Virus record (IMG/VR): IMGVR_UViG_3300015177_000008
Coordinates: 32,001-96,000 of that record
Direction: 5' to 3' (one strand)
DNA: 64,000 bases
DNA from: a virus
Taxonomy: Duplodnaviria; Heunggongvirae; Uroviricota; Caudoviricetes
Both the position numbers and the translations under genes were made by a program. Every line of letters starts with the position of its first letter. Within the stretch, counting starts at the first letter, position 1. The notes under the pieces are model-generated. The model ran no database searches, was not told where the DNA came from, and was given only the letters and a program-made list of their open reading frames with translations. Of this stretch, positions 28,988-63,337 are shown piece by piece.

Positions 28988-29632
28988 CTAATGAACGGTC
29001 ACTCGGCCACAGAACCGGTTTTCTATCTTTTCTACAGCGTTATCTAGCATTCTCATCACTGATCTGGCTCTTGCTTCAACCGTGCGATATCGGTTGGAAA
29101 CGACGAAGGTTTGCAGATCCCCCCTTTGCGGATGCAGGTGAATTTTTGTCAGTTCCCCGCACATCAACGCATCAATACGAGCGACATACAGACGGTCTAA
29201 TGATGCTCGTTGTGATCGCAAGTAATCTCGCTCTGAGAGAGCGACTCCCGGGCGTAGGCCAGCAATGGCGTTAAAGTTTGAAATAGCAGTTTTGTGGCAA
29301 AACTTTTCGATATCGAGGGCTAACTCAATACATCGATCTTCATTGGTATGGCCGACCAAATCCAACGTGTAGGCCATAACATCAGCAGGTGTGCGATCGA
29401 TAACAAAGCCTTCAACACCACGCGTAAGTAGCTCTATATGCTTTGCTATTTCCATTTGAATCTGAAGCCGCTCATATAGAGACATAGACTCACCTACTCG
29501 AACACCGAGTCGGCTCATCAAACTTCCGACACCAGCATCCACGTAAGGGATTCCGTAATGTTTGTCGATATATTTTGCCAGGGTTGTTTTCCCACTGCCC
29601 TGAGCACCAGTGATCCCAATCCGGTAATCCAT
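28988..29632 (-). CDS. P-loop NTPase, putative (deoxy)nucleotide kinase
   Basis: Walker A GITGAQGSGKTTLAKY at N-terminus; ATG overlaps the DHFR stop (TAATG). Confidence 0.6.
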   Translation of the reverse strand: MDYRIGITGAQGSGKTTLAKYIDKHYGIPYVDAGVGSLMSRLGVRVGESMSLYERLQIQMEIAKHIELLTRGVEGFVIDRTPADVMAYTLDLVGHTNEDRCIELALDIEKFCHKTAISNFNAIAGLRPGVALSERDYLRSQRASLDRLYVARIDALMCGELTKIHLHPQRGDLQTFVVSNRYRTVEARARSVMRMLDNAVEKIENRFCGRVTVH

Positions 29633-30108
29633 TACGACCTTCTGTATACGATCTGCGAAAAGCCAGGCTCTTCCTCGCTGGCTCGTTGGGTATAAGCTGT
29701 TTCAACAGGCACAAAGCCTAAATTACGCATCATGCTTGCCGGGAAGAATGCATCGGCGTTTGGCACATCAACGCCGATGTGGGAGAGCCAAATCTCTTCA
29801 ACATGCGGCATGAATAGCGAGTAAATTTGTTCCCCGCCAATCACCCACACAGGCTCTGGTAATCGCAACACATCATCCACACCAGCAGGGTAGAATCCAT
29901 TTGGTACAAAGCCATGAGAGCGCGTCAAAACGAGGTTATGACGCTCTGGAAGAGGGCGTTTGAGACTTTCCATCGTTTTACGCCCCATAACGACAGTGGC
30001 GTTTTTGGTGAGTCTCTTAAATAGCTTCAGATCGGTAGAACAACGCCAGGGCAGTTCGTTCGCTATGCCGATCTCATAGTTACGGCCAACAGCAGCTATC
30101 ATCTTCAT
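29632..30108 (-). CDS. folA: Dihydrofolate reductase
   Basis: 158 aa; MIAAVGRNYEIG, ELPW, VVMGRKT, WVIGGEQIY motifs typical of DHFR. Confidence 0.9.
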   Translation of the reverse strand: MKMIAAVGRNYEIGIANELPWRCSTDLKLFKRLTKNATVVMGRKTMESLKRPLPERHNLVLTRSHGFVPNGFYPAGVDDVLRLPEPVWVIGGEQIYSLFMPHVEEIWLSHIGVDVPNADAFFPASMMRNLGFVPVETAYTQRASEEEPGFSQIVYRRS

Positions 30109-30518
30109 TTGCTCACCTCATAGATGACCGGTCTATGATGAGAGTCAGCTAAGGCGGCACGGAGTCGAGGATCGTGCACCAGCGCAGCGATAAGCAGATC
30201 GCCTTTATGCTCCGCTAATGTGCGCTTAATATGCTTCTCATAACTGGTGCCATTCGGTACGAGATGAAGCCAGTCATAATCAACGCCAAAATCTTTCAGC
30301 CATCGTTTAGTTGGCGCTTCAAGAGTTTCAGAGCGGCTACTGATAAGCACCACTTCAGCCCCTGAGCGAGCAAAACCACGCAACATACGGCTGGTGGGGA
30401 AAATGAGTTCATCACCGGCAATGAGCTGGCCTGCATCCGCGTCAGATACTGATTTACGATGGCTGGCATTTGCCAGCACACCTTCAATTTCGCATAAGAC
30501 ATACATACCTCTTGCCAT
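30105..30518 (-). CDS. Hypothetical protein (138 aa), possibly HAD-like
   Basis: ORF trimmed to ATG 30518 (MARGMYV), 1 nt after the thyA stop. Confidence 0.45.
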   Translation of the reverse strand: MARGMYVLCEIEGVLANASHRKSVSDADAGQLIAGDELIFPTSRMLRGFARSGAEVVLISSRSETLEAPTKRWLKDFGVDYDWLHLVPNGTSYEKHIKRTLAEHKGDLLIAALVHDPRLRAALADSHHRPVIYEVSK

Positions 30519-30519
30519 A

Positions 30520-61396: not shown

Positions 61397-61783
61397 ATGT
61401 CTGACAACAAGATTGAATTTATAGAAAGTCGCTATGCTGCTTTTATCGCAGGGCTGATTGAATCCTCACCTATGAGTCAGGCCCAAATAGCCAGACTTAT
61501 TGGTTATAAAAATGCCAACAACCTTTCTTTAATTAAAAGTGGCAAAATTCCTTTGCCTATCGATAAGGTTCGTCCGCTGGCGCTGGCACTGGGTATTGAG
61601 CCAAGTCGTCTTATGATGATGGTGCTGGAAGAACGCCAACCCGAACTTGCAGCATTTTTATACAAAGAAGGCACTGCTCCTCTTAACGAGGACGAAAAAC
61701 AGGTTCTTGCTGCATATAACGAGCGATTCGGTAAAGAGAAAGGCGCATCACAAAAGGTTGTTGAGGCCATAAAGTCTCTATGA
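61397..61783 (+). CDS. XRE-family helix-turn-helix regulator (candidate repressor)
   Basis: 128 aa; MSQAQIARLIGYKNANNLSLIKSGK resembles an HTH; adjacent to the recombinase. Confidence 0.55.
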   Translation: MSDNKIEFIESRYAAFIAGLIESSPMSQAQIARLIGYKNANNLSLIKSGKIPLPIDKVRPLALALGIEPSRLMMMVLEERQPELAAFLYKEGTAPLNEDEKQVLAAYNERFGKEKGASQKVVEAIKSL

Positions 61784-62881
61784 AAAATTTACACGAATAA
61801 GCTCTGTTGATAGACGATCTCCCTTAAATTTGTGGTCAATTTCGTCTAAATCCGGTTGCTCTACGATTGATGCGATGTACGTCGAGAAACTTTCTAAGGC
61901 GTCTCGCATCTCGTCCATATAATCGTGCCGGTCGTAGACCCGATCTATCCCCTCAAGACTGTGGTTCATGATTTTGCGTGATACCTCCTGGCTTATGCCT
62001 AATGCTGGGAAGTAACTACGCGCAGTACGGCGCAAATCTCGGGGTGTAAATGGCTCAAGCTCCATCAGTTCTGGTCGTTCCAGAATACGACGTAATGCCT
62101 GGGCTATTGCCACTTTAGACATAGGAAGGTCTTTCCCGATTTTTTTATTCGAAGGCACGAGCCACTGGCTGTCTTTACCGTATTCGAACAACTCTTCAAT
62201 GCATGTGCGCATTAATGTGCTTAAAGGCAGAGAATGCTCACGGGCAGATTTGTTCCTCTTGCCTTGATTCCAAACCCCACGCTTAAGATTGAACTCACTT
62301 TTTTTAGCCCGCAGTACTTCGTCAGGTCGTCTTGCGGATACAAGACATAGCCTGGCCGCCCATTTTGTACCAGCGCACACATTGAAGTAGTCCCATATAT
62401 TCCAGAACACCCATACCTCTGCGTCAGTCAGCTTCCGCTCGCGGGGCGTGGGCTTTGCGCCACCGGCAACTTTGTTAAGTGACATATCGTTTAACGGTGA
62501 CACGTCTATCATCCCCTGGAAGGCGCACCAGCTAAGGAACTGCTTCATTAGAGAGAAAACGCGGCGGCCCATAACAATTTTGCCATCCAGTATTAGTGGG
62601 TTGACCAGTTGGTTCACCATGAACCTATTAATGTCACTTACTTTTACATCGGCAATGTGCGGCAAAACATGTATCAAAATACAATGAACAGCGATCTCTG
62701 GCCGACGTCTGGTTATCAGCAGAGATAAGCGAGTGAATAACATGAATGCGTCCGAGAATCTCAAGTCATTGCTGACCTGGGAGATCATAACGGCCTGCAT
62801 TTGAGATGCTCTTTCGAGATACTCTATCGCCTCTTTTGAGGTGTTCTCCGCAGCGCGTGCTCTGTCAAAGCTATTTTTCAT
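61778..62881 (-). CDS. Tyrosine recombinase/integrase family protein
   Basis: 367 aa; C-terminal catalytic-like region PRDLRRTARS ... HSLEGIDRVYDRHDY. Confidence 0.75.
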   Translation of the reverse strand: MKNSFDRARAAENTSKEAIEYLERASQMQAVMISQVSNDLRFSDAFMLFTRLSLLITRRRPEIAVHCILIHVLPHIADVKVSDINRFMVNQLVNPLILDGKIVMGRRVFSLMKQFLSWCAFQGMIDVSPLNDMSLNKVAGGAKPTPRERKLTDAEVWVFWNIWDYFNVCAGTKWAARLCLVSARRPDEVLRAKKSEFNLKRGVWNQGKRNKSAREHSLPLSTLMRTCIEELFEYGKDSQWLVPSNKKIGKDLPMSKVAIAQALRRILERPELMELEPFTPRDLRRTARSYFPALGISQEVSRKIMNHSLEGIDRVYDRHDYMDEMRDALESFSTYIASIVEQPDLDEIDHKFKGDRLSTELIRVNFS

Positions 62882-63091
62882 ATGACAATCACCGAGTTAC
62901 GCCGATGCACTGTATAAGTAAACAGTATATTAGGCATAGATTCTTATAGGATCAAGAGTAAAAGTAACTCATTTTCAGCAATGATTCCATACATAGTAGG
63001 TATGGAATCATTTTGACGTTGTTTTTTGAATTTTAAGGGAAATGGGAGTGAGTTTGGTGGGAATAAAAACGGCTCCTGTGAGCCGTTAAAA

Positions 63092-63337
63092 TCAGAGGGT
63101 GCTGACGTATGCAGCCAGTTCTGTGTATCCGCCAATCGGCTGGCCTTCGATCAGCACCTGGGGGATAGTCTCTACCGGTTTACCAACAATTTCACTTAGT
63201 TTTTCCTTGTCGATACCGGCAGTGGTGATGTCGATGTACTCATAATCACCGTAGCCATGTCCCTTTAGTTGCTTCGCTAGCTCGACCGCACGTTTGCAGT
63301 ATGAGCAGTTATCTCGTCCGTAGATAGTGATCGTCAT
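63092..63337 (-). CDS. grxA: Glutaredoxin (GrxA-like)
   Basis: MTITIYGRDNCSYCKRA (CxxC active site), GKPVETIPQVLIEGQPIGGY; start trimmed to ATG 63337 after SD gagg. Confidence 0.8.
   Translation of the reverse strand: MTITIYGRDNCSYCKRAVELAKQLKGHGYGDYEYIDITTAGIDKEKLSEIVGKPVETIPQVLIEGQPIGGYTELAAYVSTL

What the first reader, a model, noticed from the sequence alone, without database searches (positions are those of the whole stretch)
29632..63337. Host-like housekeeping genes carried on the element (nrdAB, folA, thyA, cspA, grxA)
NrdA and NrdB here closely resemble the E. coli enzymes by my recollection of those sequences, and the CspA-like and glutaredoxin-1-like proteins are also close to E. 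coli versions. Together with DHFR and thymidylate synthase they form a self-contained dNTP supply pathway (glutaredoxin reduces NrdAB), implying recent acquisition from an enterobacterial host.
Basis: partly seen in the sequence, partly recalled or inferred. Interest (0 to 1): 0.4.

Follow-up and report, generated by a model that had tools for sequence, protein, structure and literature searches.

The report
Phage-plasmid's own old nucleotide-synthesis genes
The genes are real, but most are an old, inherited DNA-precursor module of a known family of phage-plasmids (its "folA" is the known trimethoprim-resistance gene dfrA51), not recent copies of E. coli genes, so the finding is ordinary.

Summary
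The window is an SSU5/pHCM2-type phage-plasmid, 98% identical in DNA to Escherichia phage Cyrano.

All six genes sit at the stated coordinates. The claims of closeness to E. coli and of recent acquisition mostly fail:
- **Identity to E. coli K-12 proteins:** NrdA 64%, NrdB 61%, ThyA 46% (with two lineage-specific insertions), DHFR 35%, Grx 47%.
- **NrdA phylogeny:** phage-plasmid NrdAs form their own clade (100/100 bootstraps). It lies outside a clade of all 34 sampled chromosomal gammaproteobacterial NrdAs (99/100) and is equally distant from enterobacteria and marine orders.
- **Codon usage:** it matches the element (r 0.92), not the E. coli orthologues (0.75).
- **Synteny:** the block nrdA-nrdB-mazG-thyA-HAD-dfr-kinase is conserved in Salmonella and Klebsiella relatives.
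- **The "folA":** it scores as DfrA51, a published trimethoprim-resistant DHFR.
- **Grx:** it belongs to the GrxA family but to a phage-plasmid-specific lineage.
- **csp:** this is the only truly enterobacterial-type gene (83% to CspG, up to 94% to other Enterobacterales). It is lineage-specific cargo with a complete cspA thermoregulator leader.

An internal control lies outside the finding. The element's metG is 98.5% identical to E. coli MetG, which shows what a host-derived gene looks like here.

This gene content has been described for pHCM2-type plasmids (Kidgell 2002, cited in PMC12928451).

The parts
33988..36303 (-). nrdA, class Ia ribonucleotide reductase alpha subunit (771 aa) with an ATP-cone
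   Evidence: Pfam finds Ribonuc_red_lgC, Ribonuc_red_lgN and ATP-cone. NCBIfam PRK09103 scores 1301 bits against a cut-off of 813. C225, N437, C439, E441, C462, Y730, Y731, C754 and C759 are all conserved. Identity is 63.8% to E. coli, 50.7% to T4 and 86% to SSU5.
32741..33883 (-). nrdB, class Ia ribonucleotide reductase beta subunit (380 aa)
   Evidence: NCBIfam PRK09101 scores 608.9 bits against a cut-off of 346. W48, D84, E115, H118, Y122, E204, E238, H241 and Y356 are conserved. Identity is 60.6% to E. coli and 89% to SSU5.
31794..32663 (-). MazG-like nucleoside triphosphate pyrophosphohydrolase (289 aa); possibly a dUTP/dNTP pyrophosphatase
   Evidence: Pfam PRA-PH 1.3e-8. PHROG 671, nucleotide pyrophosphohydrolase, 1e-47. 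There is a weak match to the DR2231 MazG-like dUTPase, E 0.0015. The gene is syntenic in SSU5 and Klebsiella.
30520..31623 (-). thyA, thymidylate synthase of a long two-insert subfamily (367 aa); this copy has Ser in place of the catalytic Tyr
   Evidence: Pfam Thymidylat_synt 2.1e-76. TIGR03284 scores 214 bits against a cut-off of 108. A 15-aa N-terminal extension and insertions of 34 and 51 aa are shared with SSU5 and Klebsiella. Codon 110 is TCC (Ser) where relatives have TAC/TAT (Tyr).
30105..30518 (-). HAD-type phosphatase related to the phosphatase domain of T4 polynucleotide kinase (137 aa)
   Evidence: Pfam HAD_PNKP scores 22.8 bits, below the cut-off of 27.6. PHROG 5387 3.5e-90 and PHROG 415, polynucleotide kinase, 1.7e-8. 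Its stop overlaps the DHFR start (ATGA).
29632..30108 (-). DHFR, a dfrA51 allele (trimethoprim-insensitive dihydrofolate reductase, 158 aa)
   Evidence: NCBIfam NF047324 trim_DfrA51 scores 338.2 bits against a cut-off of 322. The E. coli FolA-type model PRK10769 scores 87.8 against 168. Identity is 90.5% to SSU5 DfrA51 and 77.8% to DfrA50. The protein is identical to the one RefSeq names dfrA51 on plasmid ECdb0033_p7. The phenotype was shown for SSU5 and Klebsiella alleles in PMC12217456.
28988..29632 (-). P-loop protein, putative (deoxy)nucleotide kinase (214 aa), last gene of the block
   Evidence: Pfam AAA_28 and AAA_17. PHROG 2107, thymidylate kinase, 1.5e-10. TIGR02173 (d)CMP kinase scores below its cut-off. 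Its start overlaps the DHFR stop (TAATG).
36321..36371 (-). Conserved promoter-like hexamers plus the palindrome GGGCCACTAAATATAGTGGCCC just upstream of nrdA
   Evidence: Promoter and hairpin scan. The palindrome has 3 mismatches to an NrdR-box consensus. It is conserved in SSU5, Klebsiella, Kluyvera and Cyrano elements.
52998..53416 (+). csp cassette: cspA-type thermoregulator leader plus the CspG/B-like coding sequence (CDS 53176-53391, 71 aa)
   Evidence: Rfam RF01766 scores 185.7 bits against a gathering score of 78, full length. NCBIfam CspG scores 146.6 against 144. Identity is 83% to CspG and 73% to CspA. GC3 is 32%. The cassette is absent at this site in SSU5 and Klebsiella phi12.3.
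63092..63337 (-). GrxA-family glutaredoxin (81 aa, CSYC active site)
   Evidence: NCBIfam NF008401 scores 106.1 bits against a cut-off of 84; TIGR02183 scores 83 against 106.5. Identity is 47% to E. coli GrxA and 41% to T4 NrdC. Most named full-length homologues above 55% lie on contigs of about 100-114 kb.

Best explanation
The window belongs to an SSU5/pHCM2-type phage-plasmid of E. coli.

**Core block (28988-36303, minus strand).** The order is nrdA-nrdB-mazG-like, a terminator-like hairpin, then the tightly packed thyA-HAD phosphatase-dfrA51-P-loop kinase. This block is an ancestral, vertically inherited core module of that element family. I infer that it works as in large lytic phages:
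- NrdAB reduces ribonucleoside diphosphates.
- ThyA makes dTMP.
- The DHFR recycles dihydrofolate.
- The accessory hydrolase, phosphatase and kinase trim and re-phosphorylate nucleotides.

The element, which also carries its own DnaE polymerase, can thereby raise dNTP supply during replication.

**Glutaredoxin.** The distant GrxA-family gene belongs to the same element lineage. It is the likely hydrogen donor for NrdAB and would use host glutathione.

**DHFR.** It is a DfrA51 allele, so a by-product of the module is reduced trimethoprim susceptibility of the host.

**csp.** This is separate cargo. It is an enterobacterial cspA/B/G-type gene with its cold-sensing leader, gained only in the E. 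coli and some Klebsiella sub-lineages.

**Shown here:** gene identities, residue conservation, synteny, phylogenetic position and codon usage. **Inferred:** expression, enzyme activities, the Grx-NrdAB partnership and the benefit to the element.
For: **The element.** It is 97.9% identical in DNA to phage Cyrano and 77% to SSU5.

**Synteny.** The whole block is syntenic in Cyrano, SSU5 and Klebsiella ST13-OXA48phi12.3. Protein identities to those relatives are 77-90%.

**NrdA homologues.** A graded series from 99% down to 65% lies mostly on contigs of about 100-112 kb. The hosts are Escherichia, Salmonella, Enterobacter, Citrobacter, Klebsiella, Raoultella, Xenorhabdus, Morganella and Moellerella.

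**Neighbour-joining tree.**
- Phage-plasmid clade 100/100.
- All 34 chromosomal gammaproteobacterial NrdAs monophyletic 99/100.
- Phage-plasmid clade plus Enterobacterales 0/100.

**Relative rate.** The phage-plasmid clade is only 0.045-0.11 further from four outgroups than Enterobacterales are. Its distance to Enterobacterales is 0.50.

**Codon usage.** RSCU correlates at r 0.92 with 11 core genes of the element and 0.75 with the E. coli orthologues. GC3 is 49-51% against 59-66%.

**Function.** Family cut-offs are met and catalytic residues are conserved.

**Gene packing.** thyA and HAD lie 1 nt apart, and the HAD/dfr and dfr/kinase junctions overlap (ATGA, TAATG).

**DfrA51.** The phenotype is from PMC12217456.

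**Grx.** Most named full-length hits above 55% are on phage-plasmid-sized contigs. The next hits are Shewanella GrxA at 49-51%.

**Literature.** nrdAB, thyA and dhfR on pHCM2 and pMT1 are in the literature.
Against: - No expression or activity data were obtained here.
- The trees are neighbour-joining only. The NrdB position inside Gammaproteobacteria is unresolved (supports 10-30%).
- This particular ThyA has Ser at the catalytic Tyr, so the dTMP step may be impaired in this copy.
- grx lies 27 kb from nrdAB, next to the integrase, so its partnership with NrdAB is inferred from family membership only.
- The roles of the MazG-like, HAD and P-loop proteins rest on weak matches.
Confidence: 0.85

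Rival explanations
1. One reading: the genes were copied recently from an enterobacterial host chromosome.
For: NrdA and NrdB are closer to E. coli (64% and 61%) than to T4 (51%), and closer than to any lytic phage in the phage collection (all below 60%). Csp is 83% identical to CspG and up to 94% to chromosomal Csps of Yersinia, Citrobacter and Shimwellia. The element does pick up host genes: its metG is 98.5% identical in protein and 93.9% in DNA to K-12.
Against: - DNA identity of nrdA and nrdB to K-12 is 66% and 65%.
- NrdA is equidistant from Enterobacterales and from marine Gammaproteobacteria, and never groups with Enterobacterales.
- DHFR is 35%, ThyA 46% (plus two insertions) and Grx 47% identical to E. 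coli.
- Codon usage is element-like.
- The block is syntenic in diverged relatives.
- Even csp DNA is at most 80% identical to any csp in 5426 E. coli genomes, and 85% to a Citrobacter copy.
Confidence: 0.04
2. The genes came from an enterobacterial ancestor long ago and then evolved fast on the element, so the basal tree position is a long-branch artefact.
For: Within the phage-plasmid clade NrdA identity falls to 64.7%, while chromosomal Enterobacterales stay at 84-99%. That could mean faster evolution on the element. The NrdB branch is long and its position is unresolved.
Against: A relative-rate comparison argues against it. Distance of the phage-plasmid clade to four different outgroups exceeds that of Enterobacterales by only 0.045-0.11. 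Nesting inside Enterobacterales would need about 0.4 of extra branch length to explain the 0.50 distance. Identity to non-enterobacterial orders is also no lower.
Confidence: 0.07
3. The module was taken from a large lytic phage (T4-like, T5-like or Vi1-like), which carry the same gene set.
For: T4, a Klebsiella T4-like phage and a T5-like phage all have nrdA, nrdB, a DHFR and a thymidylate synthase side by side. The element also has gp32-like and UvsY-like proteins.
Against: NrdA identity is 50-52% to T4-like, 44% to Vi1-like and 34% to T5-like phages, all lower than to cellular NrdA. ThyA is 27-37% and DHFR 20-32% identical to those phages. Gene order differs: frd-td-nrdA-nrdB in T4.
Confidence: 0.04

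Closest known systems
Nucleotide-metabolism genes of pHCM2 / SSU5 / pMT1-type phage-plasmids (SSU5 supergroup)
   Same: The gene set and order match SSU5 and Klebsiella ST13-OXA48phi12.3. The DNA is 98% identical to Escherichia phage Cyrano. nrdAB, thyA and dhfR on pHCM2 and NrdA2/NrdB2 on pHCM2 and pMT1 are already reported.
   Different: This E. coli sub-lineage adds a csp cassette in place of a 141-aa gene. It has a RecA intein. Its ThyA carries a private Tyr-to-Ser change.
DfrA51 / DfrA50 trimethoprim-resistant dihydrofolate reductases (PMC12217456)
   Same: The protein scores above the DfrA51 cut-off. It is 90.5% identical to SSU5 DfrA51 and identical to a RefSeq protein named dfrA51. Direct reading of the sequence shows A6, I13, D26 and S48, the residues mutated in that paper.
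   Different: This allele differs from the tested SSU5 protein at 15 of 158 residues, and its MIC effect was not measured. In the paper, resistance was measured from cloned genes on pET21b and pACYC184 vectors, not from the native element.
E. coli NrdAB with glutaredoxin 1 (class Ia ribonucleotide reductase system)
   Same: The class and domain layout are the same, including the ATP-cone. All checked catalytic, radical-pathway and iron residues are conserved. The Grx belongs to the GrxA family.
   Different: Identities are only 64%, 61% and 47%. No yfaE ferredoxin gene follows nrdB. The Grx active site is CSYC rather than CPYC. grx lies 27 kb away from nrdAB.
T4 frd-td-nrdA-nrdB-nrdC dNTP-synthesis genes
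   Same: The functional logic is the same: a mobile element carries its own reductase, thymidylate synthase, DHFR and redoxin.
   Different: Identity is 25-51%, the gene order differs, there are no introns, and the lineage is different.
E. coli cold-inducible cspA/cspB/cspG/cspI genes, including copies in lambdoid prophages
   Same: A full-length cspA thermoregulator leader is present. Protein identity to CspG, CspB and CspI is 82-83%. Homology to the Qin cspB locus extends beyond the coding sequence. Lambdoid phages carry 85%-identical copies.
   Different: The gene is located on a phage-plasmid. DNA identity to chromosomal copies is only 71-85%.

Membership tests
Class Ia ribonucleotide reductase, alpha subunit (NrdA) | Scores above the curated equivalog cut-off; has an ATP-cone plus the all-alpha and barrel domains | tested here: met
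   PRK09103 scores 1301 bits against 813. Three Pfam domains are found.
Class Ia ribonucleotide reductase, alpha subunit (NrdA) | Active-site and radical-pathway residues C225, N437, C439, E441, C462, Y730, Y731 and C-terminal C754/C759 | tested here: met
   All are conserved in the alignment to E. coli NrdA.
Class Ia ribonucleotide reductase, beta subunit (NrdB) | Equivalog cut-off; tyrosyl radical Y122; iron ligands D84, E115, H118, E204, E238, H241; W48; Y356 | tested here: met
   PRK09101 scores 608.9 bits against 346. All residues are conserved.
E. coli-type FolA (type 3 dihydrofolate reductase) | Scores above the PRK10769 equivalog cut-off | tested here: not met
   The score is 87.8 bits against a cut-off of 168. 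Identity to FolA is 35%.
DfrA51 trimethoprim-resistant dihydrofolate reductase | Scores above NCBI's allele-family cut-off | tested here: met
   NF047324 scores 338.2 bits against 322. DfrA50 scores 300 against 355, not met. The protein is identical to the RefSeq dfrA51 product on plasmid ECdb0033_p7.
DfrA51 trimethoprim-resistant dihydrofolate reductase | Raises the trimethoprim MIC when expressed | not testable with these tools
   This was shown for the SSU5 and Klebsiella alleles only (PMC12217456).
Thymidylate synthase ThyA | Family cut-off; catalytic Cys146; Arg21, Arg126/127, Arg166, Asp169, Asn177 | tested here: met
   TIGR03284 scores 214.3 bits against 108.35. The residues are conserved.
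Thymidylate synthase ThyA | Catalytic Tyr (E. coli Y94) | tested here: not met
   The window has Ser110 (TCC). Cyrano, SSU5, plasmid ECdb0033_p7 and E. coli have Tyr.
CspA-family cold-shock gene | Cold-shock domain protein above the family cut-off, plus a cspA-type thermoregulator leader | tested here: met
   CspG NF007378 scores 146.6 against 144, and CspA NF007679 scores 140.2 against 130. RF01766 scores 185.7 against 78.
GrxA-family glutaredoxin | Family cut-off and a CxxC active site | tested here: inconclusive
   NF008401 scores 106.1 against 84 (met), but TIGR02183 scores 83 against 106.5 (not met). The motif is CSYC, not CPYC.
Recently host-derived gene (operational definition) | High DNA identity to the host orthologue, host-like codon usage, nesting inside the host clade | tested here: not met
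   nrdA and nrdB are 66% and 65% identical in DNA. RSCU correlates at r 0.75 with E. coli against 0.92 with the element. There is 0/100 support for grouping with Enterobacterales. The element's metG meets all of the tests that were run.
SSU5-supergroup phage-plasmid | Collinear DNA or protein similarity to SSU5, pHCM2 or Cyrano, with both a plasmid replication gene and phage genes | tested here: met
   DNA identity is 97.9% to Cyrano and 77% to SSU5. A Rep3-type initiator is present. Gene content is shared.

The most novel reading that the evidence does not exclude
The conserved palindrome GGCCACTAwATwTAGTGGCC lies between the promoter-like hexamers and the nrdA start in every phage-plasmid compared. 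It may be an operator for the host NrdR repressor. If so, the element would plug its own ancient reductase lineage into the host's dNTP-sensing control rather than expressing it constitutively. Alternatively it is just the terminator of the upstream gene.
Probability: 0.25. Interest if true: 0.4.

Novelty: already known. Interest (0 to 1): 0.15.

Why it matters
The correction matters more than the finding.
- **Origin.** These genes should not be read as fresh host captures. They mark an old lineage of mobile-element nucleotide-synthesis genes that travels with SSU5-type phage-plasmids across Enterobacterales.
- **Clinical angle.** The "folA" is a dfrA51 allele embedded in a conserved, tightly packed operon with no mobile element beside it. 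This fits the published idea that this trimethoprim-resistance gene is an ancestral housekeeping gene of the element. About 3.7% of complete E. coli genomes (202 of 5426) carry this thyA segment, and hence probably the module.
- **A useful yardstick.** The contrast with metG and apbC on the same element shows how to tell recent host-derived cargo from old element genes.

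Tried and rejected
- **NrdB tree.** The phage-plasmid clade is solid, but its position among Gammaproteobacteria has 10-30% support, so I drew no conclusion from it.
- **NrdR-box search.** The single hit has 3 mismatches, and 53 of 100 shuffles give at least one hit window-wide. Only its location and conservation are suggestive. No second box was found.
- **Solved-structure searches.** The P-loop protein gave nothing usable. The MazG-like protein gave only weak DR2231 matches. Their roles stay tentative.
- **tRNA scan.** No tRNA genes were found.
- **Literature.** A 2025 preprint on phage-plasmids in clinical isolates mentions none of these genes. A 2026 heteroresistance preprint concerns a different phage-plasmid family.
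- **Possible chromosomal junction.** I considered that metG and apbC mark a chromosome junction. I rejected this because the same 25 kb is 100% identical to a 113.7-kb plasmid record, and about 65-67% of it, including metG and apbC, is covered on many 106-114 kb plasmids.
- **Source record.** That plasmid is not the exact source of the window. It has IS3 insertions in csp and in the kinase gene, and Tyr in ThyA.

Full report
**What the window is**

A megablast of 29632-49632 against phage records gives 97.9% identity over 91% of the query to Escherichia phage Cyrano. It gives 98.4-98.5% to phages CMS-2020a and PhiR41_1. It gives 77% to Salmonella phage SSU5 and matches several Klebsiella phage-plasmids. 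The first 25 kb is 100% identical to a 113.7-kb E. coli plasmid record. About 65-67% of it, including metG and apbC, is covered at about 96% identity on many plasmids of 106-114 kb. The window is therefore part of an SSU5/pHCM2-type phage-plasmid, a family already described (PMC7969092).

**Checking the observation**

All six genes exist, and the finding's limits are exactly the DHFR stop and the grx start.

| Gene | Coordinates | Strand |
|---|---|---|
| DHFR | 29632-30108 | - |
| thyA | 30520-31623 | - |
| nrdB | 32741-33883 | - |
| nrdA | 33988-36303 | - |
| csp | 53176-53391 | + |
| grx | 63092-63337 | - |

Pfam E-values run from 3e-10 to 5.5e-131.

I fetched the E. coli K-12 and T4 genes and computed global identities.

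| Window protein | Identity to E. coli K-12 | Identity to T4 |
|---|---|---|
| NrdA | 63.8% | 50.7% |
| NrdB | 60.6% | not computed |
| ThyA | 45.8% | not computed |
| DHFR | 35.1% | 30.1% |
| Grx | 46.9% (GrxA) | 40.8% (NrdC) |
| Csp | 72.9% (CspA); 82-83% (CspG, CspB, CspI) | not applicable |

"Closely resemble" therefore holds for Csp only. For NrdAB it holds loosely, in the sense of "same class, closer to E. coli than to T4". It does not hold for Grx, ThyA or DHFR.

**Are the proteins intact?**

- NrdA and NrdB pass NCBI's class Ia equivalog cut-offs.
- Both keep every catalytic, radical-transfer and iron-ligand residue I checked.
- ThyA passes TIGR03284. It carries a 15-residue N-terminal extension and two insertions of 34 and 51 residues, all shared with the SSU5 and Klebsiella proteins.
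- The same insertions occur in a small set of long thymidylate synthases. The nearest named one is from Photobacterium ganghwense, at 53% identity.

**The "folA" is dfrA51**

- It scores 338.2 bits on NCBI's DfrA51 model (cut-off 322).
- It scores only 87.8 bits on the FolA-type model (cut-off 168).
- It is 90.5% identical to the SSU5 protein and 77.8% to the Klebsiella protein.
- Those two proteins were named DfrA51 and DfrA50 after they raised trimethoprim MICs in E. coli from 2-4 to 128-512 mg/L (PMC12217456).
- RefSeq names an identical protein dfrA51 on plasmid ECdb0033_p7.

**Recent enterobacterial origin? Phylogeny**

A search of 5.8 billion proteins with NrdA returned a graded series from 99% down to 65% identity. 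Most hits with long assemblies lie on contigs of about 100-112 kb. The hosts are Escherichia, Salmonella, Enterobacter, Citrobacter, Klebsiella, Raoultella, Xenorhabdus, Morganella and Moellerella.

In the phage collection only 25 records exceed 60% identity. T4-like phages are at about 50-52%.

A scan of species-representative genomes found one phage-plasmid contig at 87%. The chromosomal NrdAs it found are all at 61-65%. They come from Enterobacterales and equally from Alteromonadales, Thiomicrospirales, Marinobacterium and others.

Results from a 58-sequence neighbour-joining tree with 100 bootstraps:

| Grouping | Bootstrap support |
|---|---|
| 19 phage-plasmid NrdAs monophyletic | 100/100 |
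| 34 chromosomal gammaproteobacterial NrdAs monophyletic | 99/100 |
| Enterobacterales monophyletic | 100/100 |
| Phage-plasmid clade plus Enterobacterales | 0/100 |

The window's NrdA is 62.7-63.9% identical to Enterobacterales and 61.7-64.7% to the other orders.

A relative-rate comparison argues against a fast-evolving enterobacterial copy. The clade is only 0.045-0.11 further from four outgroups than Enterobacterales are, while its distance to Enterobacterales is 0.50.

The NrdB tree also gives a 100% phage-plasmid clade outside Enterobacterales, but its deeper position is unresolved.

**Recent origin? Composition and synteny**

- GC3 of nrdA, nrdB, thyA and the DHFR is 49-51%. That is like neighbouring element genes (about 43-53%) and unlike the E. 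coli orthologues (59-66%).
- Their pooled RSCU correlates at r 0.92 with 11 core genes of the element and 0.75 with the E. coli orthologues.
- The order nrdA-nrdB-mazG-thyA-HAD-dfr-kinase is identical in Cyrano, SSU5 and Klebsiella ST13-OXA48phi12.3.
- thyA and HAD lie 1 nt apart, and the HAD/dfr and dfr/kinase junctions overlap (ATGA, TAATG).
- A terminator-like hairpin separates mazG from thyA.

**An internal control**

Outside the finding, the element carries metG (8993-11026, -) and apbC (11184-12284, +). They are arranged divergently, as on the E. coli chromosome.

- MetG is 98.5% identical in protein and 93.9% in DNA to K-12.
- ApbC is 94.3% identical in protein and 82% in DNA.
- Their RSCU correlates at 0.92-0.95 with E. 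coli genes and 0.74 with the element core.

This is what a host-derived housekeeping gene looks like on this element. The genes in the finding look nothing like it: nrdA and nrdB DNA identity to K-12 is 66% and 65%.

**Glutaredoxin**

- It passes one GrxA-family model and fails another.
- Its active site is CSYC.
- Most named full-length homologues above 55% identity lie on contigs of about 100-114 kb. The hosts are Escherichia, Klebsiella, Cronobacter, Salmonella, Enterobacter and Raoultella.
- The next hits are chromosomal Shewanella GrxA at 49-51%.
- Jumbo-phage glutaredoxins reach at most 50%.

It is therefore another old gene of the element lineage, not a recent E. coli copy. Its pairing with NrdAB is inferred from what GrxA does in E. 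coli (established knowledge). It was not tested.

**Cold-shock gene**

This is the one gene that fits "host-like".

- Rfam finds a full-length cspA thermoregulator over 52998-53416 (185.7 bits, gathering score 78).
- The protein passes the CspG and CspA models.
- It is 91-94% identical to chromosomal Csps of Yersinia, Shimwellia, Citrobacter, Cedecea and Providencia.
- It is 85% identical to copies in lambdoid E. coli phages.
- Its GC3 (32%) is an outlier on the element and resembles prophage cspB and cspI.
- It is absent from the same site in SSU5 and Klebsiella phi12.3, where a 141-residue gene sits instead.
- It is present in Cyrano and, at 93%, in Klebsiella pJN2-26.

Even so, it is not a fresh E. 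coli copy. Among 5426 complete E. coli genomes, matches of 99% or more occur only in 90 records, and the one listed is a 100-kb plasmid. The best chromosomal matches are 71% over the whole cassette (cspB locus) and 80% over the coding sequence (cspG). A Citrobacter copy reaches 85% and a Yersinia copy 79%.

**How it most likely works**

The block supplies deoxynucleotides for the element's own replication machinery, which includes DnaE, SSB, RecA and nucleases. The logic is that of T4- and T5-type phages, which carry the same four enzymes side by side.

"Self-contained" overstates it. Nothing in the window encodes glutathione synthesis or reduction, serine hydroxymethyltransferase or NDP kinase, so host enzymes must complete the pathway (inference from the gene lists).

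**Novelty**

The presence of nrdAB, thyA and dhfR on pHCM2 is attributed to Kidgell et al. 2002 (quoted in PMC12928451). NrdA2/NrdB2 of pHCM2 and pMT1 are listed in PMC3019208. The DHFR was characterised in 2025. The finding is therefore already known, and its one interesting inference is wrong.

**Caveats**

- The trees are neighbour-joining only.
- No expression or activity data exist for this copy.
- ThyA here has Ser at the catalytic Tyr (see the passing notes).

Noticed in passing
window 8993-12284: metG (-, 677 aa) and apbC/mrp (+, 366 aa) are arranged divergently, as on the E. coli chromosome. MetG is 98.5% identical in protein and 93.9% in DNA to K-12; ApbC is 94.3% and 82%. Codon usage is host-like. 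These are the truly host-derived housekeeping genes of the element, and they occur on many E. coli phage-plasmids of 106-114 kb.
   Followed up: partly
window 31294-31296 (thyA codon 110): The codon is TCC (Ser) where Cyrano, SSU5, plasmid ECdb0033_p7 and E. coli ThyA (Tyr94, a catalytic residue) have Tyr. None of 203 E. coli records shares the surrounding 61-mer exactly, and 199 are in the 95-99% identity band; every listed one is 98.4%, i.e. one base different. The change is either a private, probably disabling mutation or a sequence error.
   Followed up: yes
window 30520-31623: ThyA has a 15-aa N-terminal extension and two insertions (34 and 51 aa) that are absent from E. coli, T4-like and T5-like enzymes. 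They are shared with SSU5 and Klebsiella elements, with a Photobacterium ganghwense protein (53% identity) and with uncultured contigs. The role of the insertions is unknown.
   Followed up: partly
window 36321-36371: Promoter-like hexamers are followed by the palindrome GGGCCACTAAATATAGTGGCCC and a T-rich run, 18 nt upstream of the nrdA start. The region is conserved in SSU5, Klebsiella, Kluyvera and Cyrano elements. It resembles an NrdR box (3 mismatches) but could equally be the terminator of the upstream RuvC-like gene.
   Followed up: partly
window 46553-48892: RecA (779 aa) is interrupted by an intein with a LAGLIDADG homing-endonuclease domain. The SSU5 and Klebsiella recombinase genes (1077 nt, about 358 aa) have none.
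   Followed up: partly
window 12811-17061: A 1416-aa inverse autotransporter (intimin/invasin type, with multiple Big_1/Invasin_D3 repeats) is carried on the phage-plasmid. It is a possible adhesin cargo gene. Only 2 of 5426 E. coli genomes match at least 80% of window 1-25000, and lower-coverage plasmid hits do not list this gene.
   Followed up: no
window 52850-53700: The csp cassette occupies the site where SSU5 and Klebsiella phi12.3 carry a 141-aa gene of unknown function (SSU5_053), which is absent from the window. In plasmid ECdb0033_p7 the csp is itself disrupted by an IS3 element.
   Followed up: yes
window 51998-52846: A hicA/hicB-like toxin-antitoxin pair lies next to the csp cassette, named as in the Cyrano annotation.
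   Followed up: no
window 18937-20623: The DUF4942 gene is split into two overlapping frames (ORFs 18937-19758 and 19625-20623). RefSeq flags the identical sequence as frameshifted. In Cyrano and SSU5 it is one 561-aa gene.
   Followed up: no
window 1-4000: This stretch has low GC (38-41%). It includes a 310-aa ORF (3019-3951, GC 35.9%) with no Pfam match, probably recent accessory cargo.
   Followed up: no
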